From positions 4,180,356 through 4,220,959 of the forward strand of contig CAJINV010000006.1 in the NCBI GenBank assembly GCA_905178155.1: 40,604 bases of DNA, written 5' to 3'. The stretch comes from Amoebophrya sp. A120. Its lineage: Eukaryota > Protista > Dinoflagellata. Positions 88 through 37,004 of the stretch are shown here, piece after piece (within the stretch, counting starts at the first letter, position 1; each line of letters begins with the position of its first letter). The position numbers and the translations under genes were made by a program. A model generated the notes under the pieces. The model was not told the origin of the DNA and searched no databases. It saw nothing but the letters and a program-made list of their open reading frames with translations.

Positions 88-2461
88 CTACAGACGCTCC
101 CGGCGGCCAGAACCCCTATGCCCTGCCCCCAAATCGCGGCCCCCGATGGCCGACAAAACCGCCGAAAACCGAAAACACGCAGAGCCACCAAACTGAGCCG
201 AAACACCTAAGACCGAGAAACACAAGCCGGCGACCAGTGCAACTGCTCCAGTTTTTTCTTCGGGCAAAGGCCCCAACGTGGGCGGCAGGCCTGTGCCCGG
301 GCGACGACCACAACAGAGCAGGATGCCAGGAGTGAGGTCATAACCCAGAGGGCCGAAGCGCTTAACGTGCGAAATAAAAAGCGCGGCGCCGGCGCTGCCG
401 TCGCTACTTCTTGCAGAACTGTAGCGGTTCGACTCTGGCAGCAGCTCCGTGGCTGGGCAACTTGCACAAGCAAAGGAGGCGCGCAATGTTTTGCCATTGG
501 CGCTATTCGAAAACTGCGAAATTTAAATTTTCGAACATGGTACTAGACATGAATTTCTCTGAGCCCATATCTGCATGCTTGAAATGTTTCTCATGCGGAG
601 ACCTCCCATGCGAGGCGTTTTCTAATGGTGTTTGGAGATTTTTGATGCTCGAAGCAGCGTGACACACTGGATCTGCGACGCTGCTGAACTAGCTACACGT
701 GGCGACTACATTGCGAGCCCAAATTTGCCATGCGTAACTCCCAAAACTTGGAGATTTGTGTTGCAGATTTACCAACTTGACAATGGGGAGGTGCTGGGGA
801 CGTTTTTACACAGGATATCCTATCTGCGAAGCTCACCCGTGCAGAATTCGGTGGCTCAATGATCTTGCTTTTCTCCCGCTGCAACGTAGCTACGTCGATT
901 GGTAGCTGAATATTGAGGCCACGAGGACCGCCTGCATGTTTGTAAACAAGCTGCTTCGCCTGCAAGTGTTGGTCCAAATCCGCCCCCGTGACACTCGGCG
1001 AGGTTCTGACGGGAATCTGTGCGGGCAGCAAAGGCAACACGTGCTTAAACTCTACCGCGTGCGACCACCCGTCAGGCTGCACGAGCGGGACTTGTCTTTT
1101 GCGCTTGCTCGTCCCTACGGAGCGTGGAGTTCTTCCTGTGGCAATATCATCCTTCGTCGCGAACCCCCTCACCGTACCAAAACCGTACTTTGCATTCGCG
1201 GAAAAGTCCAAGTCATCCTTGACCTGCACGCGCTGGTTCAGAAAGAATTCGGGGCCGTCCGGCCGCCCGAGTTTGTAGGTCAGGGAGTTTTATTGAAAGA
1301 AAAAGCTCCCCCTCCCCATATTGAAAAGGGAAGCTTCCGAAAATTTGCGTTGCTGATTTCAGGTCACAAATCACATCTGTCTTGCAAGAAGACAAGGGCA
1401 GAAGCTTCCGCCCCATTATGGAAGCGATTTGTCCTGCTACTGGGCCTAAAGGGGGGCCGTTTGCAATGCTGAGCAACTAGACCCATACGCCCCCACCTAG
1501 CCTGGGGATCTGGCCGCAATGCCTTGCTGCAATACAAAGCTGATTTGTGTACACAAATCCAGCATCAGAAATTCCGTCTTGATCTGGGGAGGGGGGATTT
1601 TTCCTTTCGATAAGTTTCGGGTGTAGTTCTCCATCACACTCGGCCGCCGGTATGCAGTGCAAAAGTATCGTACTCGTATAAATGCATTCCTCGGCATGAG
1701 AAATTGAATTTGTAATGCTGATCTACCTCAAGAAAAAAAATTTTAATGCATGATTGCAATACGAGTGCGATACTTTTGCACAGGATAGCCGGGGAGTGTC
1801 GACGATGCCGGACTGTTTGGAGGTAGTCGCGTATGACAGTGCACAACTACCCCTCGTTCTCATTTCTCATGGAAAATACCAACTGCAACTCCACGCTTTC
1901 GCTTTCCCTCCTGTCACTACTATGCATGTCATGCATGACAAGTTCTGGTAGCCCAAATAGCACTATACTCCAGTGCAAATGTGTCATGCAAAACCGGCAT
2001 TCTTGCTTGATGCTTGTACTATTCTTGCCGTTCATGCTATACAAATGAGGAGGAGGGGGAGTTGTGTACTGTTATATCGCGCGGGACGAGGATCGGCTCG
2101 TCGTCGTGGTGGGGGGATTTAGTCCTATGGAAGTGTCAGGATCGAAATCGACGAAGCTGAAAATGAAATTTGTGATGCTTAAAATACAATGCACAGACTG
2201 CCTGACTTGCAAAGCAGCAGGGAAAAGAGGGCGATTAGAGGCCTCTTTCTGGTTAGAGACTGAGCTGCTAAAATAGCATGGCAAAAGATAGATGTCGTCT
2301 TTGCCGCCCAAACAGCATGACAGACTGGATTTAGGTGCCATTTGTCTATCGATTTTATCATGCATTACAAATAATTTCAACTTTGTCGACTTCGAGTTCG
2401 ATCCTGACACTCCCATAAGCCCGGTGAGAAACGTAGATGAATTATCCGCGCTGATGATCAT
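88..2461 (-). CDS. Hypothetical protein, multi-exon; 3' end uncertain
   Basis: Removing elements 2126-2417, 1832-2076, 1651-1787 and 1291-1612 plus one 5-bp DR each gives one ORF: MIISADNSSTFLTGLNPP...EFFLNQRVQVKDDLDFSANAKYGFGTVRG...VPLVQPDGWSHAVEFKHVLP...RVSFADR (to 818). The RVQVKD..G.V..PLVQPDGW segment could be a small SH3/Tudor-like barrel (inference). The junction after the decayed element ending at 817 is ambiguous; one option joins in frame to ORF 88-486. The start codon is tentative. Confidence 0.6.
569..817. mobile_element. Family B element, left TIR decayed
   Basis: Right TIR GGGGACGTTTTTACACAGGATA is intact. The core resembles the reverse complement of 20936-21216 from ~570 onward. 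No left TIR found. Confidence 0.75.
1291..1612. mobile_element. Introner-like element, family C
   Basis: TIR TAT.....GAAAAA.C(T/C)CCCCTCCCCA; DR AGTTT/AGTTT. Confidence 0.9.
1651..1787. mobile_element. Introner-like element, family E
   Basis: TIR TAT.C.GTGCAAAAGTATCG.ACTCGTA; DR GCCGG/GCCGG. Confidence 0.9.
1832..2076. mobile_element. Introner-like element, family F
   Basis: TIR TAT.ACAGT.CACAACT.CCCCT; DR TCGCG/TCGCG. Confidence 0.9.
2126..2417. mobile_element. Introner-like element, family D
   Basis: TIR TATGG.AGTGTCAGGATCGAA; DR AGTCC/AGCCC. Confidence 0.9.
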
Positions 2462-3011: not shown

Positions 3012-6000
3012 TCAATGGTACCGGTTTCCGATCAAAGACGCGTGTTCTACTCCTATCTGCTATCAACTGTAAAAATGTCTGGGTCTGGAAGAATGCAACT
3101 TGTCATGCTGATTTTGGATTCTAAAAAAATCTGTATTGCATGAGCAGCAAAGAGAGTCCAAGTTTTGCTACACGGAAAGAGCATTTGTCATGCGGTATAG
3201 GCATCAGGAAGTCCTCACAAAATCTGTGATGCTAGGGCATGCATCACAGACGTCAGAAGTCATGCAAAATGTGCAAGACAAGCCTGGCAATCTTCCAGAC
3301 CCAGACATTTTTACATTTGATATCTGCCTCCTCTCTCCAAAACCAGTCCGAGAGGGAGAGAGCTGAGGTGCTCCTGTCAGCGTCGCCGGAACTACTTCTA
3401 CGCCGGTGGGGAATTGTGCGGGGGAAGTAGGAACCACCGCTTGCTGGCTTGCGTCGCCACGAAGTGTCGTACTACTAGCTTGCTGGTGACCAAGAGGAGC
3501 GCCGGAAGTAGTCGTGGTTCTTGCCCCGTGGTAGTTGCTCATCGTCCGCCCCGGCGTAGATGAGGTACTACTGCTGGTACTTCTTATTCTTCTCGTTCTC
3601 TCCCCCCCGGCATTGCCGCTGCTGCTGCTGCTACTTTGGCGGTGCTCTATTTCACGTGGTTGCAGCTCCACGGCTGTAGTACTACTTCTACCCCGCTCAA
3701 GGTAGTTTTCATCTACTTTGTGAGGACTGTACTTGCTGGAGGTCGTGCGCAAAAAAGAAAGGTCCGCGTGGTGGTGCAAAAAAAGCTCTCTCACCGGTCT
3801 CCTGAGTAAAAACGTCCCCACGACCCCACGGCTGTCATGCAAATGCGCAATGACAGGAATCGATTTGTACTGCGCAGCTCCATGAGAGGCATAATTTCCA
3901 GTCGAGTTTTGGAATTTGTAATGCTGTAAACAGGATGAGAGAGTGGCTTTCTCATGCGGCTTCCCTTCTTGCCGACCAGCACTACACTGCAGAGGGAAAC
4001 CTGTCATGCACAACTCCCAACACTTGAAGATTTGCGTTGCTAGATTCCCAACTTGACTATGGGGTGGGGACGTTTTTGCTTAGGATAACCAGCTCCAGTT
4101 TCTCCTCGTTGCTTGGTAGGTTCATTTACCCTGTGCAAATATGTCTGGGTCTGGAAACTTGTAATGCTGAGTGACGTAGCATGAGGAGCCCACAAATGAT
4201 GGCTCAGCATGACAAGATTCTGAGCTTCTAAGTGTTGCCTATTCTGCATGACAAACTGCGACTCTGCATCACAGAAAAATAGGGTTTTTGGATAACGCGC
4301 ATGACAGACTTGAGAGTCCTGCTAGCCTAGCATGACAAACCTCGCATTTTTCCTGACCCGAGCATATTCGCACTTGATATCATTTCGATCAGCGTCAGCA
4401 AGTCCCTCTGGTTCATATGGAAATTGCAAAAGTGTGCAAAATAAATCGCCATCAATGCATGACAAACGTTTTTTCCAAGCTAAATCGGCATGACAAATTC
4501 CGTTGCTATTGCTGCGCGAATTTGTCGTTATTCTAATTACTACTAGTACGATCGTTGTACTTACTTTTGCAGTTCATAGCTCAGTGTGGAAGACGACCTC
4601 GTGCGGCCCAGTCCCGGCGTCGGCTCCCGCTTAACTCCTGTGGTCGTCCCCGTGCCGTGGGAGTAATTTTTATGCATTGCAAAACCAAAAGCATCGCACT
4701 AGCAGAAAGCGGATTACAAATTTGCCAAGCATGACAAACGGAATTTGTCATGCTGTTTTACCTTGGGATGGAGATTTGTTGTTATGCAGGGTTGCGATTA
4801 CAACGAGTACCGGATACTTTCGCACAGGATATTTTTGCGCTTCACCGCCTGGCTCCCCGATATCATTATACGCGTATCAACTGCAAAAGTGTCTGGGTCT
4901 GGAAACTTGTGATGCTAATTTATGAATTTATTAATATGGGGACACTGCAATAGGCAGCCACGCATGACAAGTTTCTGGGCTCCTTTGTGTTTCGCTTTCC
5001 GCATGACAAACTACATTTTTGCATGACAGGCAAGAGGCTCTTTTCCTGCTCACACATTAGCATTACAGATCTAAGAGTCATGTGCGACAAGCATGACAAA
5101 CTTGCATTCTTCCAGACCCAGACATATTTGCATTGGATAACGCGCCAACTACACCAATCTCTTCCATCTCGATCACGGTCGTGTATCACTGTGAAAAATC
5201 CCCCCTCCCCATATTGAAACGGAAACTTCTGTTGCTGGATTTGTGTACACAAATCATCCCTGTCTTGCAATGAGGCACCACAGGCAAAGCCTCAGCCTGC
5301 GTTGGGGTGGTCTGTTGCAGGCGCTTAGCATAACAGAGGCCGGCACTGAAGTTGAAGATGAAACAGCATTACAAATCGCCTCCATAAGGCGGCGGATGCT
5401 TTGGATTTGCCTTCTTGCAAGAGCGACAGGATTTGTCGTCACAAATCAGCATCACAAATTTTCAGGAACATACCTGTTCAATATGGGGAGGGCGGATTTT
5501 TCCTCGCAGTATCGTGCCTGTCTTCCTTGCACTTCGGACGCCATGATCTGGCGTGATTGCCGTGTCGTCTTTTTGCTGTGATATTGCTTCCCCTATACTT
5601 TCAGTGGGCAGCGTCAGGGTCGTCAGCCGCCTTGCGTCATCGCCAAACTTCTCCTCCAAATCGGTTTCCTTCTCATTCTGTGCAAAAGTCTGTTCTCTGA
5701 TACTCGTACTACTTGCAAGATTTATTTTGCATCACAAATCTATACTTTCTACCTGATCCAGCACGACAAATGGCATTGTTGTTCTTGAAAGAATTTTTTG
5801 TAATGCACTACTAGTTGTACCACGAGAATCGTACTTACCTTTGCACTGCATACCGCTTTCCCACCGACAGGTCCAGCACATAGGCCATGGGGACCGCGAT
5901 TATATGGAGAGAAAAAAGCTCGCCGCAGTCACTAACTTGCAGGCCTTGCATTGCAATTTTTTTTGCGTCACAACTTTTCCTTGTGTTGCAGAAACGCTAG

Positions 6001-7829
6001 GAATATTCCTTATGCCGTTTGGCTGTGATGCATTTTTACGCATGACAGAAAGTTTTGCATTCACAAAAATGCGCGCGCGTGATCGTGACGAACTTTTTTT
6101 GTTTGATAGATCAGGGCGAAGAAGTAGTAGTAGCTGTAGTAAAGCAGAAACTCCAGCTTCGTAATATACCTCAACCGGTGATCGCCCGTCAAAAACGCCA
6201 TCGGGATGATCTCGCTAAAAATCAAAACGCCGAAAATCGAGACCAGGATGGCAAAAAACGGGCTCGACTCGTCGTCCAAGATCTTGTCCCACACCAACGG
6301 GAGGGACTCGAGGCAAATCGTGTTCCCGATGCGGATATGCATTGCATGTATGTCTGGGTCTGGAACAAGCATGGAACTTGCATATTTATTATGCTAGTCC
6401 TGCATTCCTGTAACTACATCTGTGTTGCATGACTAACAAAAAGGCGGCCTCTTTTGTCATACAGAAGCGCAGCCGCAGTTTCTCATGCGGACTGCGCATG
6501 AGAGAGTGCTCGGCAAACTTGTCATCCTTGGCAGCTGCATAATTGGGAAGTATTTCATCAGTCATCCACGACAATTCATCAGCATCACAAGTTTCCAGAT
6601 CCAGACAACATATTTGCAGTTGATAAAGGAGCGTCGACAGTAGTCTGTGGTGGTTTTTCAAATACTGCGATAGCCGGTTTTCCATGCGGTTGCTCACCTG
6701 TGTGCTGTAGTTCCTGCGTAGTCCACTCCTCCTCGACAAACCTCGGAGCCGCCGCGGCCCTGTTGCAGACAGCGGTAAAAAGCTACCGTGATGCGCCGCT
6801 AGCACGACTTGCCCCGACGAAGAGGCAGTGGCTGCAGAAGCTTTCGGTTTGCTTAATACTTCATCATCGCCCACTTCTGGCGCGCCTTATCAAAAGAAAA
6901 AATGCCCCCTCCACATACTTACTCAAAGGGAGACTTGTGTAGCATAATTTGTGATCACGAGTCGCGTTGTCATGCTAGAAGGGAAGAGATGCGGATTGCA
7001 GTGCTGGCTGGCGTGGGAAAGCCTTGCGTCTTCAGCATGACAGAAAGCAACTGGAAAAGGGAAACAGCAAGACAAATGGCCAGCAAACGAGGGAGCAGCT
7101 GCGTCTCTTGGCCTTCTAGCAATACAATGCGATTTGTGCTCCCAAATCAGCATCGCAAATTTTCTTTTCGATATGGGGAGGGGAGGTTTTTCATTACGAT
7201 ACGCCTCCCATGGGACCGTCCAGGTTTCGGCTCTCCTGCTTCGCGATTAATACTTGCAATTGCGCTGGATCCATGCCGAGCAGGCCCACGGTAAGCCCAG
7301 AGTAAGCCCCGGCGAGGAAGAGTAACAGTACCGCGAGTGCTAGGTAGAACCAAAACTGCGGCTCGTGGGTCAAATGGTGGTCACGGGGGGTAGACGAGGG
7401 CGAGGGCTGCACCTCGTTAGGGTGCAGTATAACAGCTCCGGTAGGTGTGGTGGGCGCGGCTTGCGTAGGTGATGCAGTACTTTGTGCCAGTGACTCGTGA
7501 TTCGTCGTCGCAAAAAGTCCCGCGATATCAAGTGCAGAAGTGTCGGGGTCTGGAAGATTGCACGACTTGTAATGCACAACATTTGCATCATGACCACATG
7601 CGATGTATGCCCTAGCGAGAGGGACAGGGAGAGCTTCCTGATGCCTATACCGCATGAGAAATGCCCCCTCCGCGTAGGAAAAACCGGACTCCGCTTGCTG
7701 CATGCAGAATCCAAAGGCAGCGACACAAGTTGCACTCTTCCAGACCCAGCGGCCTATTTGCACTGCATACGCGAGCGCCGCGGCAGTTGCGCCCACGCTG
7801 GTAGAGTTGGAGGTTCCCACCGTGCTCAT
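3012..7829 (-). CDS. CNNM/DUF21-domain membrane protein (Mg2+/metal transporter-like), 13 exons, 600 aa, no CBS pair seen
   Basis: The spliced ORF contains FLAGAYSGLTVGLLGMD, LKNHHRLLSTLLIGNTICLESLPLVWDKIL, LIFSEIIPMAFLTG, IAVPMAYVLDLSVG and SQRDLLTLIEM, matching the DUF21 pattern. Removing 12 elements (+5 bp each) leaves 1803 nt = 601 codons ending in TGA at 3012-3014. Confidence 0.88.
3061..3322. mobile_element. Introner-like element, family A
   Basis: TIR TATCAA.TGTAAAAATGTCTGGGTCTGGAAGA; DR TCTGC/TCTGC. Confidence 0.92.
3798..4087. mobile_element. Introner-like element, family B
   Basis: TIR T.TCCT.AG.AAAAACGTCCCCAC (left end TCT); DR ACCGG/ACCAG. Confidence 0.9.
4127..4379. mobile_element. 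Introner-like element, family A
   Basis: A-type TIR (left end TAC); DR TCATT/TCATT. Confidence 0.88.
4416..4578. mobile_element. Introner-like element, family E
   Basis: TIR TATG....TGCAAAAGT; DR GTTCA/GCTCA. Confidence 0.85.
4671..4831. mobile_element. Introner-like element, family E
   Basis: E-type TIR; DR ATTTT/TTTTT. Confidence 0.85.
4875..5139. mobile_element. Introner-like element, family A
   Basis: A-type TIR; DR ACGCG/ACGCG. Confidence 0.92.
5184..5511. mobile_element. Introner-like element, family C
   Basis: C-type TIR; DR TCGTG/TCGTG. Confidence 0.9.
5674..5852. mobile_element. Introner-like element, family E (diverged)
   Basis: Left end CATTCTGTGCAAAAG vs right end TATGCAGTGCAAAGG; DR CTTCT/CCGCT; frame restored. 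Confidence 0.75.
5903..6108. mobile_element. Introner-like element, family G
   Basis: TIR TAT......AAAAAAG.TCG....TCAC; DR GATTA/GATCA. Confidence 0.8.
6336..6625. mobile_element. Introner-like element, family A
   Basis: A-type TIR; DR GCGGA/AAGGA; restores STLLIGN. Confidence 0.88.
6888..7201. mobile_element. Introner-like element, family C
   Basis: C-type TIR; DR CGCCT/CGCCT. Confidence 0.9.
7526..7769. mobile_element. Introner-like element, family A
   Basis: A-type TIR; DR CGCGA/CGCGA. Confidence 0.9.
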
Positions 7830-9868: not shown

Positions 9869-10588
9869 TTAACCAGAGACCATGGCGCTGAAGCCGTCCA
9901 GAACGGGGTTCTGGTACCCGCCTTCCCCCGCTTTTCCAGCAGTCACTTGCTTCCCCCAATTCGAGACCGGCGCTGCCACGGTTTCGTTCCACGCATTCGA
10001 GATCTTCGTTCCCACGCCTTCTTGGTGCTTCCACTCGTTCGGGTCATGAGCGTTCCAGTCCACACTGGCCTGGCCGGCACTGCCGTTAACATACTCGCTC
10101 TTCGTGCGCGCCTTGGCCTTCGTCGCCTCCCCCGCCAGCGCCTTCTTCTGGTGTGCCTTGGACTTCACCGTGTCCACTGCTTCGCCGGTCAAGATTTTAC
10201 TCGCCTCCTGCTGCTTCTTGTCGACATCCAGAAACGCTTGCTGGATTGCTGGATTGCTGGATTGCTGGCGCTGTTGATATGGTATGATTGATACATGTTG
10301 GAAAATGCTTTCAAGAAGCAGACGTAGCCGACCAGCCCGCATCTTCACTCGACCGACACAAAGACAAAGATCACGCATGAGGACCATTTACATTCATTGG
10401 GAGCAAACACAACTCTATACCGGCTTCCAGTTCGACGGGCTGATCGGCGGCGTGTCGGCCTGCTCCAGCTGCCCCTTGACTTCGTGACCGGCCCAAACCA
10501 TTTTCTTCGCACGGTTTTCTTCCATTTTCTTCTCCGCGGCCACCAGGGCGGCGGAGGAAATGAACAGCTTCTGCGCAGTTTTGGTCAT
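9869..10588 (-). CDS. Hypothetical protein, ~189 aa, possible N-terminal signal peptide; one GT-AG intron
   Basis: ORFs 10415-10600 and 9869-10387 join in frame via a GTATAG...AACAG intron at 10271-10420. N-terminus MTKTAQKLFISSAALVAA is signal-like. No recognisable domain. Confidence 0.55.
10271..10420 (-). other. Canonical GT-AG intron
   Basis: GTATAG...AACAG joins two ORFs in phase 0. Confidence 0.55.
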
Positions 10589-12203: not shown

Positions 12204-15200
12204 TCACAAACTCTGCGACCTTTTGTAATCCACTTTTTCCGACTATGAATTGCAAATATGTCTGGGTCTGGAAGATTGCAAGACTTGTCATGCCCGTTTT
12301 ATTGCAGGACCCATAATGTCTGTGATGTCTGCCCTAGCATCACAGATTTGGGAAGGGCTTCCTGATGCCTATACAGCATAACAAAATGAAATTCCGCCTC
12401 CGCGATGCAAAAACTGCACTCCTTCTTCCTGCTCGCGCATTACAGATGTTCGTAGAATCCAAAGGCAGCTGCATTACAAATTGCCCTCTTCCAGACATCC
12501 AGACAGATTTGCAATGCATACCGCCGCATTTCTACTTTCCCTCTCTTCCACCTCCAGTAACTTGGTCTGGCTGAACGCCGTCCTTGGCGGTAACGACAGA
12601 CTGAAATCTATGCGGTGGAAAAACGTCCCCACCTCCCCAGTGTTAGGTTCAGAATTTTGCATCACAGATCCAGAAGTCTTGCGAGTCACGTATGACGAAC
12701 TGAAGCTGCTCTCGAAGATGTTGTAGTGCACATTAGCAAGGCCAGCCGTCGTGGATCACAAAAGCCGTCCCATTAGTTGATGCTGTCTACAGCATTACAA
12801 ATGCCGAACCACGACTAAATCTAAAACGCTTCTTATGGGGATGCGCATTACAAATGCTCTTGTTGTAGATGCAAATCTAAATGATAAATCTGCGGTGGTG
12901 ACGTTTTTCCTCAGGATAAAATCCAATTCTGTCATGTCCTCCTCCGCCCGATTGCTAGGGGAACCACGAGGACCTCCGCGCGATTGCTGGAGTGCGGACG
13001 GTATGAATTGCAAAAATGTCTGGGTCTGGAAGATTCCAACTTGTCATGGTAAATCTGAAGCATGCGAAAATCTGTGTTGCATGAGTGCCAAAAGCTGTAC
13101 ACTTTTGACCAAGTTGCAGGGGCGTTTCTCATGCAGGATAGGCATGGCAGAGACCTCGCAGAGTCTGTCATGCTAAGTCCCGCATTCCAGACCTCATGGG
13201 TCATGGAAAATCTGCGTGACAAGTCTACACTTTTCCAGACCCAGACATTTTTACAGTTGATAGACGGTGCCGTTCCACCCGCGCTGTTGGATGCGACCGG
13301 CAGGACAAACGCATTGGAACTCGCGGCTCCCGTGGTCGCTGACGTGCCACCGCCTGCAGCTCCTCCCGGGCTTACGTTGTACTCGGCAGATGTGTAGTTA
13401 TTCGTGTTCCTGTCGCTTTTTGATATTGCCCCGTTCCACCCAAATCCGCTTAACATATGCGCTCCGTTTATTATCTTTCCGTGTGCGTAAGAACCCCCGT
13501 TCTTGTTCTCTGCCGCTAGGTAGTTGGAATACTGTCGGTATGCAAGAAAAAAACTATGTGAGAAGTGCATGTCTGTGATGCAGAAAGTGCAAAACTGTTA
13601 CACTTGTCATGCTGGATGTGCGTCATAGGCTACTACTTTCATACGTGTTTCAACATACTAGCAGCGCATGTGACAGGTTTATTTCCCTGTAATGCAAAAC
13701 GAATTTGTGATGCTGCTCTTCACTTCAAAGTTACACTTACACAGTTTTTTCCAGGCGTAGTCGGTTTTTCAGTTTCAATACCCGCAGCACGTCCTTCTCC
13801 AACTTCTCGGCCATCGAAAGCTGCTGCTGCTGTTGTTGCTGCTGCAGAGGGCTGTTTCGATACCCGGCGACTGCCTGTTGCGTCGAGTCCTGCGCGTCGG
13901 AACTGGAGTTGCTGCTGTCCGCTGTGCTTTCAGAGTTATCAAATGCAAAAGTGTCTGGGTCTGGGAGGATGGAACTTGTCATGCTGTCTTTGGATTCCAA
14001 AAAAATCTGTATTGCGTCAGGAGCAAGAGGAGTCCAGTTTATGCTACGCGGAGGGGGTATTCCTCATGCGGTATAGGCATCAGGAAGCCCTCGCAAAATC
14101 ACTGATGCTAGGTCATGCATTACAGGCATCATCGTTAATGCAAAATGTGCATGACAAGTGTTCCAATGTTCCAGACCCAGACATTTTTGCATTTGATAAG
14201 AGGAACTTGTGAGCAAAATGTCTGTTTCTTGCTTCACTTGGGCGGCAGCAGCAGCACCACCAGCAACAGGCTCTTGGTCGTCGTGGTCTTGCGCCCGCCC
14301 CCCCTCGCCGGCGGTGCGCCGGCGCAGAGAGCCCAAAACCTGCTCCCCAAAGGATTGCACCACCGTTTCCTTCATCAGGTTCCGCAGCAGTTTCGTGAAA
14401 TTCTTCGAAAAATTCTGCAGCACCATTTGCACCACTGGCTTCGTGCAAACCTCGTTGTCCTGCTCCTCCTTCTTGTTCAGCAGGTAATGCACAAACGCCA
14501 TGTTTTCCCCCTCGCTGTCGTCTTGGTAGATGCTGTTTTTCGGCAGCTTCCGCGTGAAATGGATCTGCGACAGGTGCTATGCATTGCAAATATCCCTGGA
14601 TGTGTGGAACAATGCAGGAGTTTGTCATGCATATTTTGCATGAACCATGAGGTCTGTGATGCATTCTCTAGCATCAGAGATTCTGCGAGGGCTTTCTGAT
14701 GCTTATACCGCATGAAAAATGCCCTCTCCGCGTAGAAAAAATTGCACCTCTTTTGCTATTCATGCAATACAGATTCTATGTCGAATCCAAAGGCAGCATG
14801 ACAAGTTGCATCCTTGTTCCAGACCCAGACATATTTGCACTGGATAGGTGCCTCTTCGTGAAGGGCAGGTGCTTGGACACCACGTTTTTCATCTCGTGCT
14901 ATCAAATGCAAAAACATCCCCACCTCCCCAGGGTTGTCATGCAGATTTGCAATGACAAGAACGTTTGTGATGCGCGGGACCCCATGATAGGCATTTCCAG
15001 TCATGATGTTTTGGGATCATTTGTGATGCTGTAAACAGGAACAGCAAATGGATTTGTAGTGCGGCTGTCCTCGCCAAAGACTATGCAGCTGCACTACAAT
15101 ACTGCAACTTGTCATGCGTCTGACTCCCAAAGCTTCAAGGTTTGTGTTGCAAAATCCGCATCTTGACAACAATGGGGACGTTTTTCCTCAGGATACGTGC

Positions 15201-26667: not shown

Positions 26668-27120
26668 GATATTCAATGTAGAATCTGTGAAGAAATGTAG
26701 AACGTGCAGCGAGGTAAGTTCTTCTTTCAGTACATGGGTAATTGTACTTTATCAAATTATGATTTTCGTCGCACTAGTGGTCATGTTTCTCCAGTCCTTC
26801 TTTCCATCGACTTTTGGAGAAGGAACTGCGCAGGTGTAGGATGATGAAAAGTGGATAATGATAATGATAATGTCTACTGGGTGGACGATGAAGAGTAAAT
26901 TGAATCATCTTCGTAGTTGGTTTTGATGTTTATCTTTAGGGGGTAAGTAACAAAAAGCGCTGGGTCCTCGACGTGATAGATTACTTATTAATCCTCTGTG
27001 GTAGTGAAGAAAATGAAAACTTGAAACAGTAGAAACTGGTACAATGCCAAAGCCTTCTGTACGCACGAACGGAAACGGAACGTTGTGTCAAGTAAAAACT
27101 CACAGGACCGGTTATCAAGT

Positions 27121-27196
27121 CTGCACGACAGAGAGGACTACTGATGCCTTGAAGCTGCACGACAGAGAATGACGGATTGAAACTGCACGACAGAGA
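27121..27196. repeat. Three copies of CTGCACGACAGAGA
   Basis: Exact 14-mer at 27121, 27155 and 27183. Confidence 0.8.
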
Positions 27197-28871: not shown

Positions 28872-31800
28872 TCACCTCCCCGAGTCCTCCCCGTCTAGTC
28901 TGTGGCCCTTTCCTATGAGAGTGCACAACTACCTCCCCCTTTGCCTCATTTGTTGTAGAACCTCTGCAGCAACAGAAACAACATAGAGGATGCAGCTTCC
29001 GCATGACAAACCCACATCCTAGAACTTGTATATGCAAACCCACGTCCGGACTGCAGTGCAGTCTGGGCAGCAGCTCGTCCAAGTGCAAGTGGAACCTGTA
29101 TAATGCAATCACAGCCAAAAGATCCAGGTGGCTTAGGCAGGATTTCTATGCCGTTTCGCATGACAAATGAAAGGGAAAGGGGGAGTTCTGCTGCACCTTT
29201 CCTATTTCCGGCAAAGGGTTGGATCGGCTCTATCCTATGTAAAAACGTCCCCACACCATAGCTAAGATGGGAAGTCTGCAACACAAATCCCCAAGTTTTG
29301 GGAGTTCTGCATGACAAGTTTCCATCTGCAGCGTAGGGCTGGCTAGCAAGTAAAGCCGCATGAGAAAGCCATTTCCTCATCCTGTTTACAGCATTACAAA
29401 TACCAAAACACGACTGGAAATGCCCCTCATGGAGATGCGCACTACAAATGTTCCTGTCATTGCACATTTGCATGACAACTCTGGGGTGGGGACGTTTTTG
29501 CTTAGGGTAGGCTCTCCGCCTCCGCTATCAACTGCAAATATGTTGTCTGGGTCCTCTGGAAGCGTGCAAACTTGTCATGCTTGTCTCACATTGACTCTTG
29601 AATCTGTAATGCCTGGGCAGGAAAAGGGCCTCGTCTTGCCTGTCAGGCGAAAAGAACGCGCTTTGCCATGCAGAAAACGAAACACATAGAAGCTCAAAAA
29701 CTTGTCATGCTTAGCTGTGCATTACAGTGTTTGCCCATCTCAATCACAGATGTGCATCACAAGGTTCCAGAAGAACTACACCCGACATATTTGCATTCGA
29801 TATCCTCCCGCGCCGGCGACGCCCGGCATCTGGGGTTGCGAGGGTCCTCTTGAACCTGTATCAAAAGGAAAAATCCCCCCTCCCCACATCAAAACGAGAT
29901 TTCTGATGCTGGATTTGAGTACACAAATCAGGTTTGTATTGCAGGAAAGCATTGCAGTCAGATCCCCAGGCTAGGCAGGGGCGTATGCGTCGAGTTGTTC
30001 AGCATGGCAAGCGGCTCCCCTTTAGGCCCAACAGCATGACAAATCGCTTCCATAGTGTGGCGGAAGCTTCTGCCGTTGTCTTCTTGCAATACAAATGTGA
30101 TTTGCGACCTCAAATCAGCAACACAAATTTTCGAAAACATACCTTTTCGATATGGGGAGGGGGGATTTTTGCTTTTGATAACCTGCTCCTGCTCCTGCGC
30201 CGGAATACCGACCCATGCCGCCGTAGTTCAGATTTTGGAAACCGTGGGCCTACGCTATCCTGAGTAAATAAAACGTCGTCCCCAAACTAAGTATATCTGT
30301 CATGCTATTCTGCGTGAAAAATTCTCTATCATGCGCACCTCCATGAGAAGAATTTTCCAGTCCTGCCTGGGACGAATTTGCCATGTTCGAATCAGGATAC
30401 TAAGAAAACTCCATTTGTGATGCGACTGCACCACCTAGTACTACCCTCCACCGGACTAATTAAACTGGAGGTGAAAAGATGAACTTGTGATGCGCATGAG
30501 GCAAAACTTCTTGACGATTAAATTTTGCTCAGGATATGCGCGAGGGACTGCATCGCCTGGAGCTCGTTCTCTTGGAAGTCTTGGTACAGCTGTTGATTTT
30601 GTATTTTCATCTTCTAAACCAGCGTCTTCCTGTCTTGCAAAAACAACAGACGTCTGCAAAAAGAAAAACAACTTCACCAGACGTGGACGTGCATGTGGCA
30701 GCAAAAATAAAACCGCTTGCTACCGCATGACAAAAAATGACACTAGAAATAATTTCCTACCTTGTAGCCTAGTATGGCTCCAAAAATTTCGGACAGCGCG
30801 CCCAGCCATGACACGGTGTATGAAATGCAAAAGTGTCTGGGTCTGGAAGAATGCAAGTTTGTCATGCTTGTCTGGCACGACTCAGAAATCTGTGACGCAT
30901 GAGCAGGAAAAGTGCCTCTTGCCTGTTGTGCAAAAATGCAGTTTGTCATGCGGAAAACGAAATATAAAGGAGCCCAGAGACTTGTCATGCGTGGCTGCGT
31001 ATTGCAGTGTGCCCACCAGACACAGACTAGCATCACAAGTTTCCAGACCCAGACATATTTGCAATCCATACGGTGAGAACGACGACAATCTGCCAGACCG
31101 GTACCGTATGCTCTGCAAACCTGTCTGTAAATCCGAAGAGACCCGGCTTTGTGATGCATAGTAGAAAGTACAACTTGGGATGAAGATCACGCGAAATCAT
31201 GTCTGTGTTGCATGACCGCCAAAAGCTGCCCCCTTTGCACTCCACATCAAACAAGTCGTGATAGAAGTAGGAGGTGGCAGTGCTGGGAGGTGGCAGTCGC
31301 AAAAGCTATGAAGATGCTTTGCCGTGCATTCCGGGTGATTTGCATTTGCGTGATCATCCAAAAGTTGCATTGCAAGAAATATTAACAGCCGCACTCTTAC
31401 GGAGGACGCAGACATCATATTTGCAGCGGATATACTTTTGATTTGATGTCGTTTGAGGTTCCTGGAACGTCGTAGTGCTGGTAAACGTGTATTGACCGCA
31501 CCGCCGCTATTGCAAAGTCGAAACCTGATTATAGAACGAGAGTGTGTATTGGGTATTTGTTTGCATGAACAGCATGACAAGTAGCTGCTCCCATGCGAAA
31601 ACCGGTTTGACAAAGTAGCACACCATTTATAGATAGTTGTAAATTAACCTACACTACTATACCTGCATTTATGAAGCAGAAGAATGTCCACATGAAGATC
31701 CACCGGATGTGCAGGGGCGGCTCGCCGAAAGAAATCATATAGGCCATGGACACCACGAACAGCATGCACAGCGACCCCAAGTATCAAGTGCAAACGTGTC

Positions 31801-32778
31801 TGGGTCTGCAAGAGTTTTGTGTTGCTGATACTCGCATCGCAGAGTATTCCCTTGTACAGCATAACAGCATCAGAAGTTATTTTGCGCGGTGGCTCATTGC
31901 GGATTCAGACTCGCAAAACGCATGAGAAACTGAGTTTCATATAGCATGACAAAAAAATCGCCAATCGCATTTTATGCATCACAAATCCTTGTTGCCTTCC
32001 GCATTTCGCAACACAAATCCAGGCCCAGACCTGTTTTCCATGCATACCAAGGTGTCGCCGACGATCAACCTGCCGAGAACGCAGAGGAACTGGTATCAAA
32101 ATGAAACATCCCCCCTCCCCATATCGAAATGGAAACTTGTGATGCTAATTTGTGGTCAAAAATCGTGTTTGTATTGCCTATACGGCAATAGGAGCCATGT
32201 GCCGCATTCCAAAGCCAGTCTGTGGTCATGCGCTTTTGAGTACGGCAAGCCTGTTTGTCATGCGTAAGTGCTAGCCTTCTGCATGATAACCAAACAGGCT
32301 CGGAAAATGCCGCCAAGCACTTTCTGCAAGCGAAATCAGATCCTTGTACGCAAATCCAGCATCAGAAACTTCGTTTTGATATTATGGGGAGGGGGGATTT
32401 TTCCGCACAATAACTGGATTACCCCGATGAAGATCACGAATTTATGGATTGCAAAAATGTCTGGGTCTGGAAGGATACAACTTGCGATGCTACTTTTGGA
32501 ATCTACATAAAATCTGTATTGCATGAACGGCAAAAGAGGTGTAATTTGTGCTACGCGGAGAGGGCGTTTTTCATGCGGTATGAGCATCAGAAAGCCCTCG
32601 CAAAATCTCTGATGCTAGGTCATGCATCACAGACCTCATGGGTCAAGCAAAATCTGCATGACAAACTCCTGCATTCTTCCAGACCCAGACATTTTTGCAT
32701 TTGATAGAATTTCCGCATTTGCAGCGCGAAGTTGGACGGCGGCTGGTCCGATTCGAAGACGTGCGCTGGGAAGATCAT
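28872..32778 (-). CDS. Four-TM membrane protein with Gly-rich tail and C-terminal SHP box (p97/Cdc48-binding motif), 13 exons, 223 aa
   Basis: Removing 10 elements (+5 bp each) and 2 GT-AG introns gives 672 nt: MIFPAHVFE...FVIFIGVIQFLCVLGRLIVGDTLGSLCMLFVVSMAYMISF...WIFMWTFFCFINAGFDFAIAAV...WQIVVVLTVSWLGALSEIFGAILGYKLY...IQPFAGKGHRLDGEDSGR*. FAGKGHRL fits the SHP consensus FxGxGxxL. Confidence 0.8.
28914..29204. mobile_element. Introner-like element, family F
   Basis: F-type TIR; DR TTTCC/TTTCC; splits the SHP box. Confidence 0.88.
29231..29509. mobile_element. Introner-like element, family B
   Basis: B-type TIR; DR GGCTC/GGCTC. Confidence 0.92.
29526..29802. mobile_element. Introner-like element, family A
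   Basis: A-type TIR; DR TCCGC/TCCTC. Confidence 0.88.
29859..30180. mobile_element. Introner-like element, family C
   Basis: C-type TIR; DR ACCTG/ACCTG. Confidence 0.92.
30256..30536. mobile_element. Introner-like element, family B (diverged)
   Basis: TIR TATCCTGAG.AAA; DR TACGC/TGCGC. Confidence 0.85.
30590..30760 (-). other. Canonical GT-AG intron with element-type internal motifs
   Basis: GTAGG...AACAG, phase 0 (GYK|LYQ); contains GCATGACAAA and TGTCTTGC. Confidence 0.75.
30819..31070. mobile_element. Introner-like element, family A
   Basis: A-type TIR; DR CGGTG/CGGTG. Confidence 0.92.
31107..31432. mobile_element. Introner-like element, family A (diverged)
   Basis: TATGCTCTGCAAAC..TGTCTG vs TATCCGCTGCAAAT..TGTCTG; DR TACCG/TACTT; frame restored. 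Confidence 0.78.
31525..31662 (-). other. Canonical GT-AG intron, probably a decayed element
   Basis: GCAG|GTATAG...TATAATCAG|GT restores INAGFDF; contains CTTGTCATGC. Confidence 0.78.
31782..32046. mobile_element. Introner-like element, family A
   Basis: A-type TIR; DR CCAAG/CCAAG. Confidence 0.88.
32094..32412. mobile_element. Introner-like element, family C
   Basis: C-type TIR; DR ACTGG/ACTGG. Confidence 0.9.
32443..32706. mobile_element. Introner-like element, family A
   Basis: A-type TIR; DR GAATT/GAATT. Confidence 0.92.
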
Positions 32779-34169: not shown

Positions 34170-34383
34170 TATCGCAAGAAAAAAGTGTATACGGTTACAC
34201 ATTGCGTTGCAGGCCAAGCAAGACAGACAACCTCTGTCATGCCGGATACGCATAGAAGAAGCCTCGTTTCATAAGGTGTTTTCCCGTAGGAATTCTGCAT
34301 TACAAGTTTTCCTCTCATGCAGAGAAATTTGTGTTGCTGAATTGACTACAAACGTGTAACTGTAACACTTTTTTCGTGGGATA
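34170..34383. mobile_element. Introner-like element, family G, in probable 3' UTR
   Basis: TIR TATC.CA.GAAAAAAGTGT..AC.GTTACAC; DR GAGCA/GAGCA; ~100 bp past the stop at 34488. Confidence 0.88.
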
Positions 34384-34487: not shown

Positions 34488-37004
34488 TCAAGTGTAGTTG
34501 AATTTTTCCCCCGCTGCCGATTGCGACTTCCGCATCCCACCATTATTTCCCCCGAGAAATGTTTGCGCTGAGTAGGCACCCGGACCGGGGGACAGCAAAC
34601 TTGTCGGATACCGGGCGAGTTTCTGTTTTATTTTGGTGATGAAGTAGTGCGCGATAATAAGCATTTTTGCATGACAAGCTCCGTGATCCTATGTATGTTG
34701 TGTGATGCATTTTTGCATGACAAGCTCCTTGTTCGTGATCTCATTTATGTGTGACGCATTTTCGCAAGATGAAATTGAAAGCAAGCTTCCTTTACAGTAC
34801 CACGGTGCATTTGAATCTCTCCGACTTCGTTTTCGGCCACGTGAAATTGGGCACGGATTCTATCGTGTGCAAAAACGTATCACCCGCCCCAGAGGTGAAA
34901 GGATACGACCTCCTAGGCTACACAAATCTACGTCTACCAGTTTTGCACCTCACGCATGACATCAAACCTGGATCCGTACTAGCATAGTCGTACTTAGAAA
35001 GCCGCGCGGCCGCATGACAAAACCACCTGAATATGCTTGTTAATAGGGCATCACAACTAGCGAAAGAACCCCAACGTCATGGAGAAATAAGTGCCTCTCA
35101 ACAAATAAATAAGGTGCCGTCCTCGCAGAGGAAACTAACTCCTGCTATGCATGCAACCTGCGCATGACAACTCTGGACTGGGTACGTTTTTACGCAGGAT
35201 AGACTCCTTTCTCGAGTTATTTTCGTCTACGTCGTCCTTTTTACTGAACAGCGGGAACTATCAAATGCAAAAGCATCGCACTAGTAGAAATCGCATGACA
35301 AATCCCCTCAGCATGAAAAATGGAATTTGTAATGCGGATTTAGGTGAAGAAGGAGATTTGTAATGCATGATTACGATTACTAGGAGTACGATACTTTTGC
35401 ACAGGATAGGAACTCCCTTCCCGTGCGGTGCGCCCCAACGCTGTATTAAGATGAAAAGTGCCCCACCATCAGAAGAGCGAACACTTTGTGTTGCAAATTT
35501 TTTTCCACACGGAACCTTTTTGCCTTGCATGAAGCAAATCCGATGCGTTTTGCTTCAAAATCTATTAAGCCACGTGCACAACTTCAACATGACAGACACA
35601 GCTTCCACTGTGGCGCTGCGCAACACAGACTTCTCCTACTCTGGCTGAAAAACTTGTAATGCTGAAACATGCACCGTGGCAAATGCTTCCATTGGGAGCT
35701 TTGCAATACAAACACATCCTGATTCTGGGGTGGCGGTATTTTTCAACATGATACGCCGGGGACCCAGGTGGAACTCCGGATCTGGAGATCAATGTTATGG
35801 GAGTGTCAGGATCGAAACCTACAAAATCAACAAATTTGCAATGCATAAAACGCAGGGCACTGCTGGCCTGTGTTGGGGAGCAGGCAAATGAGACCGATTG
35901 CAAGCCTGTGTAGGGGAAGACGATGTGCTGCCAGAGTAGCATGACAGGCGCAGTCTTACTTGCCCAAACAGCATGACAGACTGGATTTTGGTGCTCCCGA
36001 CGTTTGTCATGCGCCACTCGGAAACTGCGGCTCCAACTGGTATCGATTTTATGCATCACAAATTATTTCGATTTTGTTGATTTCGATCCTGACGCTTCCA
36101 TAAATGTAGGTGTCTCGGTAGGCGTGGACTGGTATCTTAGAAAAAAGTACAAGACCTACATAATCAGAAAAACAATATATAAACTTGTGTTGCATTTTAT
36201 TCGGGCGTCACAAAATACCTTTTTTTGGCTGTTCAGCATGACAAACGATATTCTTTGGCTGCACCCCTTTAGTACTCGATCCGACACATGACCACAAACT
36301 TCGCCCCTCATGACAGAAAAGACAAACAAAACCTGCACGACCTCTTTTGGTCTCCGCATTATACAGAGTTTGCACTGAAGCAAATTTAGCAACACAAATG
36401 TATTTCTCTTCTGGTATGGATCTACTTTATTTCTCTAGGATAACTGGCTTCCAGGCAGCGCGGTTGTTGTTCAAACGACCTGGATTTATTGGTTTTGCAT
36501 CTCAATCTGCATGACAAAGTTACCGTCTCGTGGCGGACTATGCATCACAAAAAAAACAATCGTGAAAAGAAACAATAAAGTTGTACTGCATAGCTTCGAA
36601 GTGTCCTTCACGTTCCCTGCTTTGTTGAAGCCGTACTGCGGTGCTGTGTGCTGCGTTCTGTTAAAATATCAAATGCAAAAGTGTCTGGGTCTGGGAAGAT
36701 GGAACTTGTGATGCGTCCTGTGGGTCAGACAAAAATCTGTGTTGCGTGATCGTGAAAAGTTGTCCTTTTTTGACCAACATGAGCGGGAGTTTCTCATGCA
36801 GGATAGGCATGATAGAGACTTCGCAGAATCTGTCATGCTAGGTCCTGCATGCCAGACGCAGGCCTCATGGGGCATGGAAAATATGCATGACAAGCCTCCC
36901 ACTCTTCCAGACCCAGACATATTTGCAATGCATATGAAGGTCCACCCGTCGATTTCCTTCGCGCCCCGTGGCCTGTTGTGGTAGGCCGTTTCGTTCAGGG
37001 ACAT
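34488..37004 (-). CDS. SHIPPO-1/ODF3/STPG-like PGP-repeat protein (putative flagellar microtubule-associated), 9 exons, 158 aa
   Basis: Removing 7 elements (+5 bp each) and 1 GT-AG intron gives 477 nt: MSLNETAYHNRP...APQYGFNK...WVPGVGAH...VPNFTWPK...ERF...LSPGPGAYS...FNYT*. It has PGPGAY-type repeats with preceding P.Y/F.F elements. Confidence 0.72.
34623..34800 (-). other. Canonical GT-AG intron with internal tandem duplication
   Basis: GTACTG...AAACAG, phase 0 (CTV|KLA); two copies of GCATTTTTGCATGACAAGCTCC. Confidence 0.72.
34861..35201. mobile_element. Introner-like element, family B (diverged)
   Basis: TIR TATC.TG.G.AAAAACGTA; DR GATTC/GACTC. Confidence 0.85.
35259..35408. mobile_element. 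Introner-like element, family E
   Basis: E-type TIR; DR GGAAC/GGAAC. Confidence 0.9.
35444..35753. mobile_element. Introner-like element, family B-like (diverged)
   Basis: TATTAAGATGAAAAGTGCCCCACC vs TATCATGTTGAAAAATACCGCCACC; DR CGCTG/CGCCG. Confidence 0.8.
35796..36102. mobile_element. Introner-like element, family D
   Basis: D-type TIR; DR AATGT/AATGT. Confidence 0.92.
36133..36442. mobile_element. Introner-like element, family G
   Basis: TIR TATC.TAGA.AAA.AA(A)GTA; DR ACTGG/ACTGG. Confidence 0.85.
36452..36592. mobile_element. Introner-like element, family E-like (diverged)
   Basis: Left end CAGGCAGCGCGG vs right end TATGCAGTACAA; DR GCTTC/GCTTC; frame restored. Confidence 0.75.
36667..36934. 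mobile_element. Introner-like element, family A
   Basis: A-type TIR; DR TAAAA/TGAAG (both differences synonymous). Confidence 0.9.

What the first reader, a model, noticed from the sequence alone, without database searches (positions are those of the whole stretch)
1291..36934. Massive system of TIR-bearing, 5-bp-DR-flanked mini-transposons acting as precisely removed non-canonical introns
Seen in the sequence: 65 elements in about seven TIR families (A 20, B 13, C 11, D 4, E 9, F 3, G 5), about 17 kb in total. They begin TA(T) and end (A)TA and are flanked by an arbitrary 5-bp DR (47 of 64 delimited copies perfect). For all 63 delimited copies in CDS, deleting the element plus 5 bp restores the frame, including through the K+ channel pore, the CNBD, DUF21 and the SHP box. 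The genes are therefore intact despite up to 30 insertions each, and most junctions cannot be read as GT-AG. Established: IR/DR-bounded introner elements and abundant non-canonical introns are described in Amoebophrya, and to my knowledge their excision mechanism is unresolved. Inference: the cell has a general machinery that removes TIR transposons together with one target-site copy.
Basis: partly seen in the sequence, partly recalled or inferred. Interest (0 to 1): 0.95.

Follow-up and report, generated by a model that had tools for sequence, protein, structure and literature searches.

The report
Amoebophrya introners cut in fixed register
These are the already published transposon-like introns of the marine parasite Amoebophrya A120: 63 hairpin-ended inserts that lack normal splice signals, and comparison with a sister lineage suggests the still unknown machinery likely cuts the RNA one base before and four bases after each insert.

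Summary
Observation confirmed. I delimit 63 elements (16,810 bp; 46 of 63 with a perfect 5-bp repeat; ends TAT-N7-AAA). The window is Amoebophrya sp. A120, and these are the introner elements of Farhat et al. 2021. Removing element + 5 bp reproduces three deposited A120 proteins across 44 elements, and matches a likely-RNA contig across 11. Only 5 of 63 junctions can be read as GT/GC-AG, the chance level. Elements sit in both orientations.

Beyond the paper: imperfect repeats fit one register only, intron = N|TAT…ATA-NNNN. The lower bound is well supported, and partly without annotation: a sister contig (L001) gives five coding empty sites plus one inside an element, and 6 of 7 polarised repeat mutations fall in the predicted intron part. 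The upper bound rests on one annotated residue; my direct RNA test of it failed (no coverage). One weak-hairpin element may often be retained.

Likely mechanism: hairpin-guided RNA cut-and-join at fixed spacers, like Euglena's nonconventional introns; the catalyst is unknown. This scan noted the same elements and register before on other A120 DNA.

The parts
12207..26748 (-). Host gene: six-TM cation channel (Ion_trans, Ion_trans_2); 2103-codon frame after removing 30 elements
   Evidence: (identical to P0001 over 1564 aa, 23 elements)
3015..7829 (-). Host gene: CNNM/DUF21 protein, 600 aa after removing 12 elements
   Evidence: identical to P0002 only at register k=4
28872..32778 (-). Host gene: 223-aa membrane protein, 10 elements + 2 GT-AG introns
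   Evidence: P0004 identical over aa 1-211; colinear with A25 orthologue P0006
696..2749 (-). Putative host gene, 346-codon frame, 4 elements
   Evidence: open frame only
34488..37005 (-). Putative host gene, 6 elements plus two decayed or canonical introns
   Evidence: open frame only, no homologue found
31525..31662 (-). Canonical GT-AG intron
30590..30760 (-). Canonical GT-AG intron
566..817 (.). One-ended family C-like copy, left end not delimited
36480..36590 (.). Decayed element-like intron, ends approximate; readable as non-canonical or as GT-AG
   Evidence: read by eye
1291..1612 (.). Element, family B, DR 5/5
1651..1787 (.). Element, family E, DR 5/5
1832..2076 (.). Element, family F, DR 5/5
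2126..2417 (.). Element, family D, DR 4/5
3061..3322 (.). Element, family A, DR 5/5
3798..4087 (.). Element, family C, DR 4/5, needs k>=2
4127..4379 (.). Element, family A, DR 5/5
4416..4578 (.). Element, family E, DR 4/5, needs k>=4; carries a GTAAGT in its TIR
4671..4831 (.). Element, family E, DR 4/5, needs k<=4 (the only upper bound)
4875..5139 (.). Element, family A, DR 5/5
5184..5511 (.). Element, family B, DR 5/5
5674..5852 (.). Element, family E, DR 3/5, needs k>=4; shared with L001, where a second element is nested in its TIR
5903..6108 (.). Element, G-like singleton, DR 4/5; shared with L001 (perfect DR there)
6336..6625 (.). Element, family A, DR 3/5, needs k>=4; shared with L001
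6888..7201 (.). Element, family B, DR 5/5; absent from L001, which has a single 5-mer
7526..7769 (.). Element, family A, DR 5/5; shared with L001
12244..12520 (.). Element, family A, DR 4/5
12609..12918 (.). Element, family C, DR 5/5
13002..13262 (.). Element, family A, DR 5/5
13539..13759 (.). Element, family G, DR 5/5
13937..14198 (.). Element, family A, DR 4/5; X3 record 9 keeps upstream position 1 (k>=1)
14578..14846 (.). Element, family A, DR 5/5
14900..15195 (.). Element, family C, DR 5/5
15418..15573 (.). Element, family E, DR 5/5
15755..16014 (.). Element, family A, DR 5/5
16092..16423 (.). Element, family B, DR 5/5
16486..16634 (.). Element, family E, DR 5/5
16670..16941 (.). Element, family A, DR 5/5
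17011..17336 (.). Element, family B, DR 3/5, needs k>=1
17614..17938 (.). Element, family B, DR 5/5
18001..18249 (.). Element, family F, DR 5/5
18312..18596 (.). Element, family C, DR 5/5
18686..18947 (.). Element, family A, DR 5/5
19028..19176 (.). Element, family E, DR 5/5, beside the channel pore
19865..20171 (.). Element, family D, DR 5/5; directly skipped (312 nt) in X3 record 10
20936..21216 (.). Element, family C, DR 5/5; skipped in X3 record 10 by gap length
21363..21678 (.). Element, family B, DR 5/5; skipped in X3 record 10 by gap length
21730..22037 (.). Element, family D, DR 5/5; skipped in X3 record 10 by gap length
22487..22810 (.). Element, family B, DR 5/5; skipped in X3 record 10 by gap length
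23009..23182 (.). Element, G-like singleton, DR 4/5 (synonymous); skipped in X3 record 10 by gap length
23263..23526 (.). Element, family A, DR 5/5; skipped in X3 record 10 by gap length
23567..23875 (.). Element, family B, DR 5/5; skipped in X3 record 10 by gap length
24384..24675 (.). Element, family C, DR 5/5; skipped in X3 record 10 by gap length
24710..24998 (.). Element, family A, DR 5/5, one terminal T lost; skipped in X3 record 10 by gap length
25072..25350 (.). Element, family C, DR 5/5; skipped in X3 record 10 by gap length
25805..26083 (.). Element, family C, DR 5/5, one terminal TA changed
28914..29204 (.). Element, family F, DR 5/5, weak TIR; read through in P0004, removal restores the motif seen in A25
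29231..29509 (.). Element, family C, DR 5/5
29526..29802 (.). Element, family A, DR 4/5 (synonymous)
29859..30180 (.). Element, family B, DR 5/5; the only one readable as GT-AG
30256..30536 (.). Element, family C, DR 4/5; k<=3 gives a premature stop
30819..31070 (.). Element, family A, DR 5/5
31107..31432 (.). Element, family A, DR 3/5, needs k>=1
31782..32046 (.). Element, family A, DR 5/5
32094..32412 (.). Element, family B, DR 5/5
32443..32706 (.). Element, family A, DR 5/5
34170..34383 (.). Element, family G, DR 5/5, outside putative CDS
34861..35201 (.). Element, family C, DR 4/5
35259..35408 (.). Element, family E, DR 5/5
35444..35753 (.). Element, family B (weak), DR 4/5
35796..36102 (.). 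Element, family D, DR 5/5
36133..36442 (.). Element, G-like singleton, DR 5/5
36667..36934 (.). Element, family A, DR 3/5

Best explanation
The elements are the published Amoebophrya A120 introners: short TIR insertions with 5-bp target duplications that sit in coding exons, are missing from a likely-RNA contig, and are likely cut out of the pre-mRNA by a structure-guided step that measures one base before and four bases after a predicted terminal hairpin. Steps: (1) shown: insertion duplicates an arbitrary 5-mer (empty orthologous sites). (2) Inferred: a transposase encoded elsewhere moves them. (3) Predicted: the TIRs pair in the RNA in either orientation. (4) Inferred from imperfect repeats: the cuts fall at N|TAT...ATA-NNNN, so the mRNA keeps four bases of the upstream copy and the last base of the downstream copy, and a fresh insertion is removed without a trace. 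(5) Not shown: the catalyst. I favour, at about 55:45, a dedicated nuclease-plus-ligase or a strongly re-wired machine over ordinary lariat splicing, because neither intron end carries any sequence constraint.
For: Identity: P0001, P0002 and P0004 are labelled A120 and match window exons at 100%; the end profile TAT-N7-AAA is the motif of PMC7789003 section 11. Removal: the models equal the deposited proteins across 23 + 12 + 9 = 44 elements. X3 record 10 skips 11 of 11 checkable elements with the exact predicted lengths, while X1 contigs run through elements unchanged. The A25 orthologue P0006 is colinear with the element-free model. Target duplication: L001 lacks 6888-7201 and shows one 5-mer; A120 lacks five L001 coding elements and shows one 5-mer at each; a nested L001 element gives a further empty site. 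Not GT-AG: 5 of 63 readable as GT/GC-AG in any of six registers, chance 5.0 +/- 2.2; first intron base A18 T17 C17 G11. Orientation: 33 same and 25 opposite among 58 elements of six families. Hairpin: 60 of 63 fold at z < -2, median -6.1 (12 shuffles each). Register: of 11 imperfect-repeat elements inside deposited proteins, 8 are informative and all allow k=4: four need k>=4, one k>=2, two k>=1, one k<=4. 30256 gives a stop at k<=3. In L001 versus A120, 6 of 7 polarisable repeat mutations lie in downstream positions 1-4 and the seventh is synonymous; identities of the L001 model to P0002 rise from 276 (k=0) to 281 (k=4, 5).
Against: The upper bound k<=4 rests on one residue of one deposited model (4671-4831); k=5 fits everything else, L001 included. 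The deposited proteins are annotations whose junction placement I could not audit, and P0001 spans almost the same stretch as X3 record 10, so these two are probably not independent. 6 of 7 is only p = 0.06 one-sided. X3 is RNA by the tool's guess only. All host genes here are on one strand. A strong hairpin is expected of any TIR element, so folding does not show that the RNA structure is read; TIR positions 4-7 pair in only 32-38 of 63, and predicted pairing of the three terminal bases is weak (<0.3) in 12 of 63. P0004 reads into 28914-29204, so removal may be incomplete there. A120 keeps U2, U4, U5, U6 and nearly all spliceosomal proteins (PMC7789003 section 10), and this window has two ordinary GT-AG introns, so a spliceosomal route stays open.
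Confidence: 0.6

Rival explanations
1. A relaxed U2-type spliceosome removes them as lariats; the TIR hairpin or a TIR-binding protein replaces U1 and the GT/AG contacts, and an internal repeated motif serves as branch point.
For: A120 has U2, U4, U5, U6 and 83 of 89 spliceosomal proteins but no detected U1 snRNA (PMC7789003 section 10). Fritillaria non-canonical TE introns are reported as spliceosomal (review PMC11282704 section 6). The internal motif GCAWNACA has a branch-like UnAC core, lies mostly in the 3' part of the sense strand whatever the orientation, and its last copy is 39-54 nt from the 3' cut in 28 of 63 elements.
Against: No constraint at either intron end. 11 of 63 have no sense copy of the motif and 24 have their last copy 60 nt or more away. 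The motif is mirrored in the 5' half, as expected of subterminal transposase sites (inference). Two elements carry a GTAAGT donor in the TIR that P0002 does not use.
Confidence: 0.3
2. Removal is repeat-guided: the two 5-mers are aligned and one whole copy (k=5), or any register, is lost.
For: k=5 fits all informative sites except 4671-4831 and ties with k=4 on L001. Farhat et al. describe splice sites as variable relative to the hairpin (Fig. 3 legend).
Against: P0002 has Asn where k=5 gives Lys. Five elements with only 3 of 5 matches persist, four of them inside deposited proteins with exact frame. Variable registers would put a stop at 30256 and would not confine mutations to one copy.
Confidence: 0.2
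3. The elements are excised from DNA in a transcribed somatic copy, like ciliate IESs, and are not introns.
For: TA ends and short direct repeats recall IES boundaries (from memory). No DNA and RNA from one and the same life stage were compared here.
Against: DNA-like X1 contigs cross junctions unbroken (26018-29256, 31044-32000). The retained bases follow gene direction in 5 of 5 sites informative at positions 2-4, which a symmetric DNA cut would not predict. Nuclear dualism is not known in Amoebophrya (own knowledge).
Confidence: 0.04
4. The genes are disrupted pseudogenes, or cryptic GT-AG sites are used.
For: No coverage of the CNNM gene exons in X3-X5; two small genes have no homologue support.
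Against: Exact joined contig; 281 of 298 residues conserved in L001 with a different element set; A25 orthologue colinear.
Confidence: 0.01

Closest known systems
Introner elements among the non-canonical introns of Amoebophrya sp. A120 (Farhat et al. 2021, PMC7789003; read: abstract, sections 10, 11, 12, 16, passages of others, supplement part 2 of 5 with legends only)
   Same: Same strain; inverted repeats starting TAT, seven variable bases, then three or more A; 3-5 nt direct repeats (5 bp in their Fig. S19 legend); many families; about 240 nt; non-GT-AG; RNA-seq supported; mechanism left open.
   Different: The text I read leaves the cut position 'variable' or 'unknown' (inverted repeats 1-5 nt from the splice sites). 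Here imperfect repeats and a sister lineage point to one register (1 nt before, 4 nt after), and empty sites show the repeat is a target duplication.
A120 introner families in Gozashti et al. 2025 (PMC12130899; passages, and 11 of 58 A120 family rows of supplement file 8)
   Same: TIR DNA introners, tens per gene, mostly with non-canonical annotated ends.
   Different: In the rows seen, superfamily is 'Unknown' and automated TSD calls are 2-5 bp or none; I saw no cut rule. I did not map my families to theirs.
Euglena nonconventional introns (Nomura et al. 2025, PMC12501133; abstract, sections 8 and 12)
   Same: Works alike: MITE-like origin proposed, paired terminal motif, cut sites set by fixed spacers that are longer on the 3' side (3 nt and 5-6 nt there; 1 nt and 4 nt inferred here), coexisting with GT-AG introns, catalyst unknown.
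   Different: Unrelated lineage; paired motif CDG/CHG, not TAT/ATA; a purine is wanted at the next exon start there, but is seen in only 28 of 63 here; shown by knock-in there, inferred here.
MITE-derived spliceosomal introners (Micromonas, Aureococcus, Polarella, Fritillaria; from review PMC11282704, section 6 and passages)
   Same: TIR + TSD elements that become introns on insertion.
   Different: Those carry or co-opt fixed splice dinucleotides; these have none.
Non-autonomous TIR DNA transposons (MITEs); hAT5 group with 5-bp duplications (label recalled and seen in an earlier scan note, not tested)
   Same: TIRs, constant 5-bp duplication, no coding capacity, presence/absence between lineages.
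   Different: Removed from transcripts; no transposase in this window.

Membership tests
Amoebophrya A120 introner elements | Located in the A120 genome | tested here: met
   Three A120-labelled proteins match window exons at 100%
Amoebophrya A120 introner elements | Terminal inverted repeat TAT-N7-AAA | tested here: met
   paper text
Amoebophrya A120 introner elements | 3-5 nt direct repeat at the boundaries | tested here: met
   46 of 63 perfect 5-mers, the other 17 match at 3 or 4 of 5
Amoebophrya A120 introner elements | Repeated, in families | tested here: met
   7 clusters hold 60 of 63; best pair 90% identical
Amoebophrya A120 introner elements | Absent from transcripts, with non-GT-AG ends | tested here: met
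   11 of 11 checkable in X3 record 10; 58 of 63 not readable as GT/GC-AG; X3 is RNA by guess
Amoebophrya A120 introner elements | Assignment to the published family profiles | not testable with these tools
   profiles and figures not available
MITE / non-autonomous TIR DNA transposon | Target-site duplication shown by an empty site | tested here: met
   1 A120-only and 5 L001-only coding insertions, each with one 5-mer in the other lineage, plus one nested case
MITE / non-autonomous TIR DNA transposon | Short, TIR-bounded, no room for a transposase | tested here: met
   137-341 bp
MITE / non-autonomous TIR DNA transposon | Autonomous partner with the same ends | not testable with these tools
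   no genome held; no match in viral contigs
U2 spliceosomal introners | GT/GC-AG ends carried or co-opted | tested here: not met
   5 of 63, chance 5.0
U2 spliceosomal introners | Branch point and lariat | tested here: inconclusive
   branch-like motif 39-54 nt from the 3' cut in 28 of 63; lariats not testable
Euglena nonconventional introns | Paired terminal motif with fixed spacers to the cuts | tested here: inconclusive
   register 1/4 inferred; upper bound from one site
Euglena nonconventional introns | N3-CDG...CHG-N5-6 signature and purine at the next exon start | tested here: not met
   ends are TAT/ATA; 28 of 63 purines
Euglena nonconventional introns | Release as full-length circles | not testable with these tools
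   contigs only for this strain
Ciliate IES (DNA elimination) | Element missing from somatic DNA | tested here: not met
   DNA-like X1 contigs contain elements with both flanks; contigs drop rare variants, life stage unknown

The most novel reading that the evidence does not exclude
A120 and its sister lineage have a second, sequence-blind splicing route that reads only the terminal hairpin of a transposon and cuts at -1/+4. Any new insertion of these families, in either orientation and even inside another element's end, is then removed without a scar. This would be a convergent twin of Euglena's nonconventional splicing code, likely run by a nuclease and ligase rather than by lariat chemistry.
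Probability: 0.4. Interest if true: 0.8.

Novelty: already known. Interest (0 to 1): 0.45.

Why it matters
The elements themselves have been in print since 2021. What is still open is how more than 60% of A120 introns are removed without GT-AG. A fixed 1/4 register turns 'variable, unknown borders' into a defined substrate (hairpin with a 1-nt 5' arm and a 4-nt 3' arm) that can be tested with raw reads and minigenes, lets the genome be re-annotated by rule, and explains why insertions into coding exons are tolerated. The sister-lineage test used here needs no RNA or annotation and can be scaled.

Tried and rejected
No whole genome is held, so no genome-wide counts or transposase search. No listed holder run is on record as RNA. 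Raw RNA runs X9 and X10 laid only partial repeat matches and say nothing on this locus. The first lay was flooded by repeat-to-repeat joints from X1, so its joint table was unusable (3147 rows not shown); only the listed pieces were used. The second lay (1950-7000; X3, X4, X5, one sample), meant to read the register at 7 imperfect repeats, found no exon coverage and no true joint: no evidence either way. The HMMER search for the gene at about 34490-37005 returned one unrelated-looking 4013-aa protein. The family A end pattern has 0 matches in viral contigs. Pairing of the first intron base with the base after the element: 16 of 63, chance level. Cryptic canonical rescue through GTAAGT at 4416 and 5674: rejected because P0002 has no extra residues. 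CNBD not found by Pfam. One script run used a wrong start and its gene 3 test was redone. Five literature searches listed no paper whose text, where I read it, gives a fixed cut register for A120. Not seen and possibly relevant: the figures S19-S25 and tables S4, S7 of PMC7789003, 47 of 58 A120 rows and files 13-14 of the PMC12130899 supplement, Roy et al. 2023 (not read), and papers outside the library.
Full report
1. Observation. A search for TA...TA pairs with inverted ends, a profile scan of the ends and self-BLAST gave 63 delimited elements of 137-341 bp, 16,810 bp in all. 46 of 63 have a perfect 5-bp direct repeat, against 33 of 20,000 random pairs; 12 match at 4 of 5 and 5 at 3 of 5. 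The ends read TAT, seven looser bases, AAA. One one-ended copy (about 566-817) and two decayed stretches were left out of all counts.

2. Frames. Deleting element + 5 bp opens a 2103-codon minus-strand frame over 30 elements and a 620-codon frame over 12; only deletions of +2, +5, +8, +11 keep long frames. A third gene of 223 aa has 10 elements and two GT-AG introns. Two further genes with 10 elements rest on open frame alone, and 34170-34383 lies outside a putative CDS. Pfam confirms Ion_trans, Ion_trans_2 and CNNM but not a CNBD; 'SHP box' is a recalled label.

3. Organism and prior art. Exon queries returned proteins labelled Amoebophrya sp. A120 at 100% identity. Farhat et al. 2021 (PMC7789003; abstract, sections 10, 11, 12, 16, passages, supplement part 2 of 5) describe A120 introners with 8-20 nt inverted repeats that start with TAT, seven less conserved bases and three or more A, and 3-5 nt direct repeats; 29,850 copies; borders left uncertain; U1 snRNA not found. 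Gozashti et al. 2025 (PMC12130899; passages, 11 of 58 A120 supplement rows) class many as TIR DNA elements. A review (PMC11282704, passages and section 6) and passages of PMC12005148, PMC11453091, PMC12787238 and PMC12621601 add no mechanism for A120. The system is therefore already known.

4. Removal from RNA. In one search, X1 (kind not on record; I read it as DNA from flat depth of 40-51 and exact unspliced matches) has contigs that cross element junctions unchanged. X3 (RNA by the tool's guess) has a 4683-nt contig whose five listed pieces skip 11 elements; the gaps of 97, 304, 187 and 0 nt and the 3424-nt span equal the element + 5 prediction. Only one junction is seen directly; the others are sums over three or four elements. 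The element-free models equal P0001, P0002 and P0004 across 44 elements. P0001 covers nearly the same stretch as the X3 contig and is probably not independent of it. The A25 orthologue P0006 is independent and colinear. Against full removal: P0004 reads into 28914-29204, one of the elements with the weakest predicted end pairing, although removal restores the motif that A25 has.

5. Not GT-AG, not orientation-bound. Only 5 of 63 junctions can be read as GT/GC-AG in any of six registers (one GT-AG), and simulation gives 5.0 +/- 2.2 by chance. Within six families 33 copies lie one way and 25 the other relative to the gene; five of these calls are weak. 60 of 63 elements fold at z < -2, which any TIR element would do.

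6. Target duplication. A scan with P0003 found one metagenome contig, L001, holding the orthologous CNNM gene, 96% identical in exons. Four elements are shared, one is A120-only, five coding ones are L001-only, and one is nested inside the end of a shared element. Each empty site shows a single 5-mer.

7. Cut register. Let k be the number of bases kept from the upstream repeat copy. I had planned to map k from imperfect repeats; earlier scan notes on other A120 DNA then gave the specific value 'one before, four after', which I tested here. Of 17 imperfect elements, 11 lie inside deposited proteins and 8 are informative: four need k>=4, one k>=2, two k>=1, one k<=4; three are synonymous. P0002 is matched without mismatch only at k=4. 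Without annotation: 30256 gives a stop at k<=3; an X3 piece keeps upstream position 1 at 13937 (the rest of that record is not listed); and of 7 repeat mutations that L001 and A120 polarise, 6 lie in downstream positions 1-4 (four would change the amino acid if kept) and one is a synonymous change in upstream position 3 (p = 0.06). So k>=4 is well supported. k<=4 rests on one annotated residue; the lay meant to read it directly found no exon coverage. All host genes here are on the minus strand.

8. Mechanism. Shown: insertion with a 5-bp duplication; net loss of element + 5 from likely-RNA; no end dinucleotide rule; both orientations; tolerance of mismatched repeats. Inferred: a transposase in trans (earlier notes name candidates elsewhere in the genome; not tested here); RNA hairpin recognition; cuts at -1/+4. 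The closest working analogue is Euglena, where knock-ins showed a paired motif with fixed 3-nt and 5-6-nt spacers (PMC12501133, abstract, sections 8 and 12), but its signature is not met here. For the catalyst I lean to a dedicated cut-and-ligate route; a re-wired spliceosome is the main rival, since A120 keeps most of it and a branch-like internal motif lies 39-54 nt from the 3' cut in 28 of 63 elements. That motif is mirrored in the 5' half and absent from the sense strand in 11 of 63, which fits subterminal protein-binding sites as well.

9. Novelty and score. Elements: already known. The register was not stated in the texts I read (five searches; unseen figures and tables may bear on this), and this scan has proposed it before on other DNA. 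This window adds a sister-lineage test that needs no annotation, empty sites, a nested element and a possibly retained weak element. Interest 0.45; novel case probability 0.4, interest 0.8 if true.

Noticed in passing
L001:6094-6496 (orthologue of window 5674-5852): A 253-bp family A element is nested 11 nt inside the TIR of another element; removing it with 5 bp restores the A120 sequence. It would need inner-first removal if the outer hairpin is read (twintron-like).
   Followed up: partly
window 28914-29204: Element with a weak TIR; the deposited A120 protein reads into it, X3 record 12 ends at 28913 while X1 runs through. Possible frequent retention that swaps the conserved C-terminal motif.
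   Followed up: partly
window 4416-4578 and 5674-5852: Both family E elements carry a GTAAGT donor-like site 14 nt into the sense-strand TIR, unused in P0002; a possible step towards a canonical intron.
   Followed up: partly
window about 36480-36590 and 34630-34790; also 30590-30760 and 31525-31662: Decayed or canonical introns hold the same internal motif as the elements; they may be old introners turned GT-AG.
   Followed up: no
window 3798, 5674, 24710, 25805: All 4 elements that lost a terminal TA lost it at the 3' end in gene sense; the 5' TA is kept in 63 of 63. L001 has one loss at each end.
   Followed up: partly
L001:4160-5770 vs window 6110-6690: Four lineage-specific insertions within about 300 coding bases whose protein is fully conserved: very fast intron gain between lineages that are 96% identical in exons.
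   Followed up: partly
L001:4721-5124: Family A element enlarged to 404 bp by about 140 bp of unrelated sequence.
   Followed up: no
window 38673-40604: GC-rich satellite of 12-bp units inside 125- and 195-bp repeats, running off the window end; possibly subtelomeric.
   Followed up: no
window 8033-8749 and 9872-10387 (minus): Two open frames of 239 and 172 codons without elements and without Pfam match; the region is conserved in L001.
   Followed up: partly
X3-X5: Likely-RNA runs hold many contigs with element ends joined to other loci, so some element sequence persists in RNA (unspliced, retained or untranslated).
   Followed up: no
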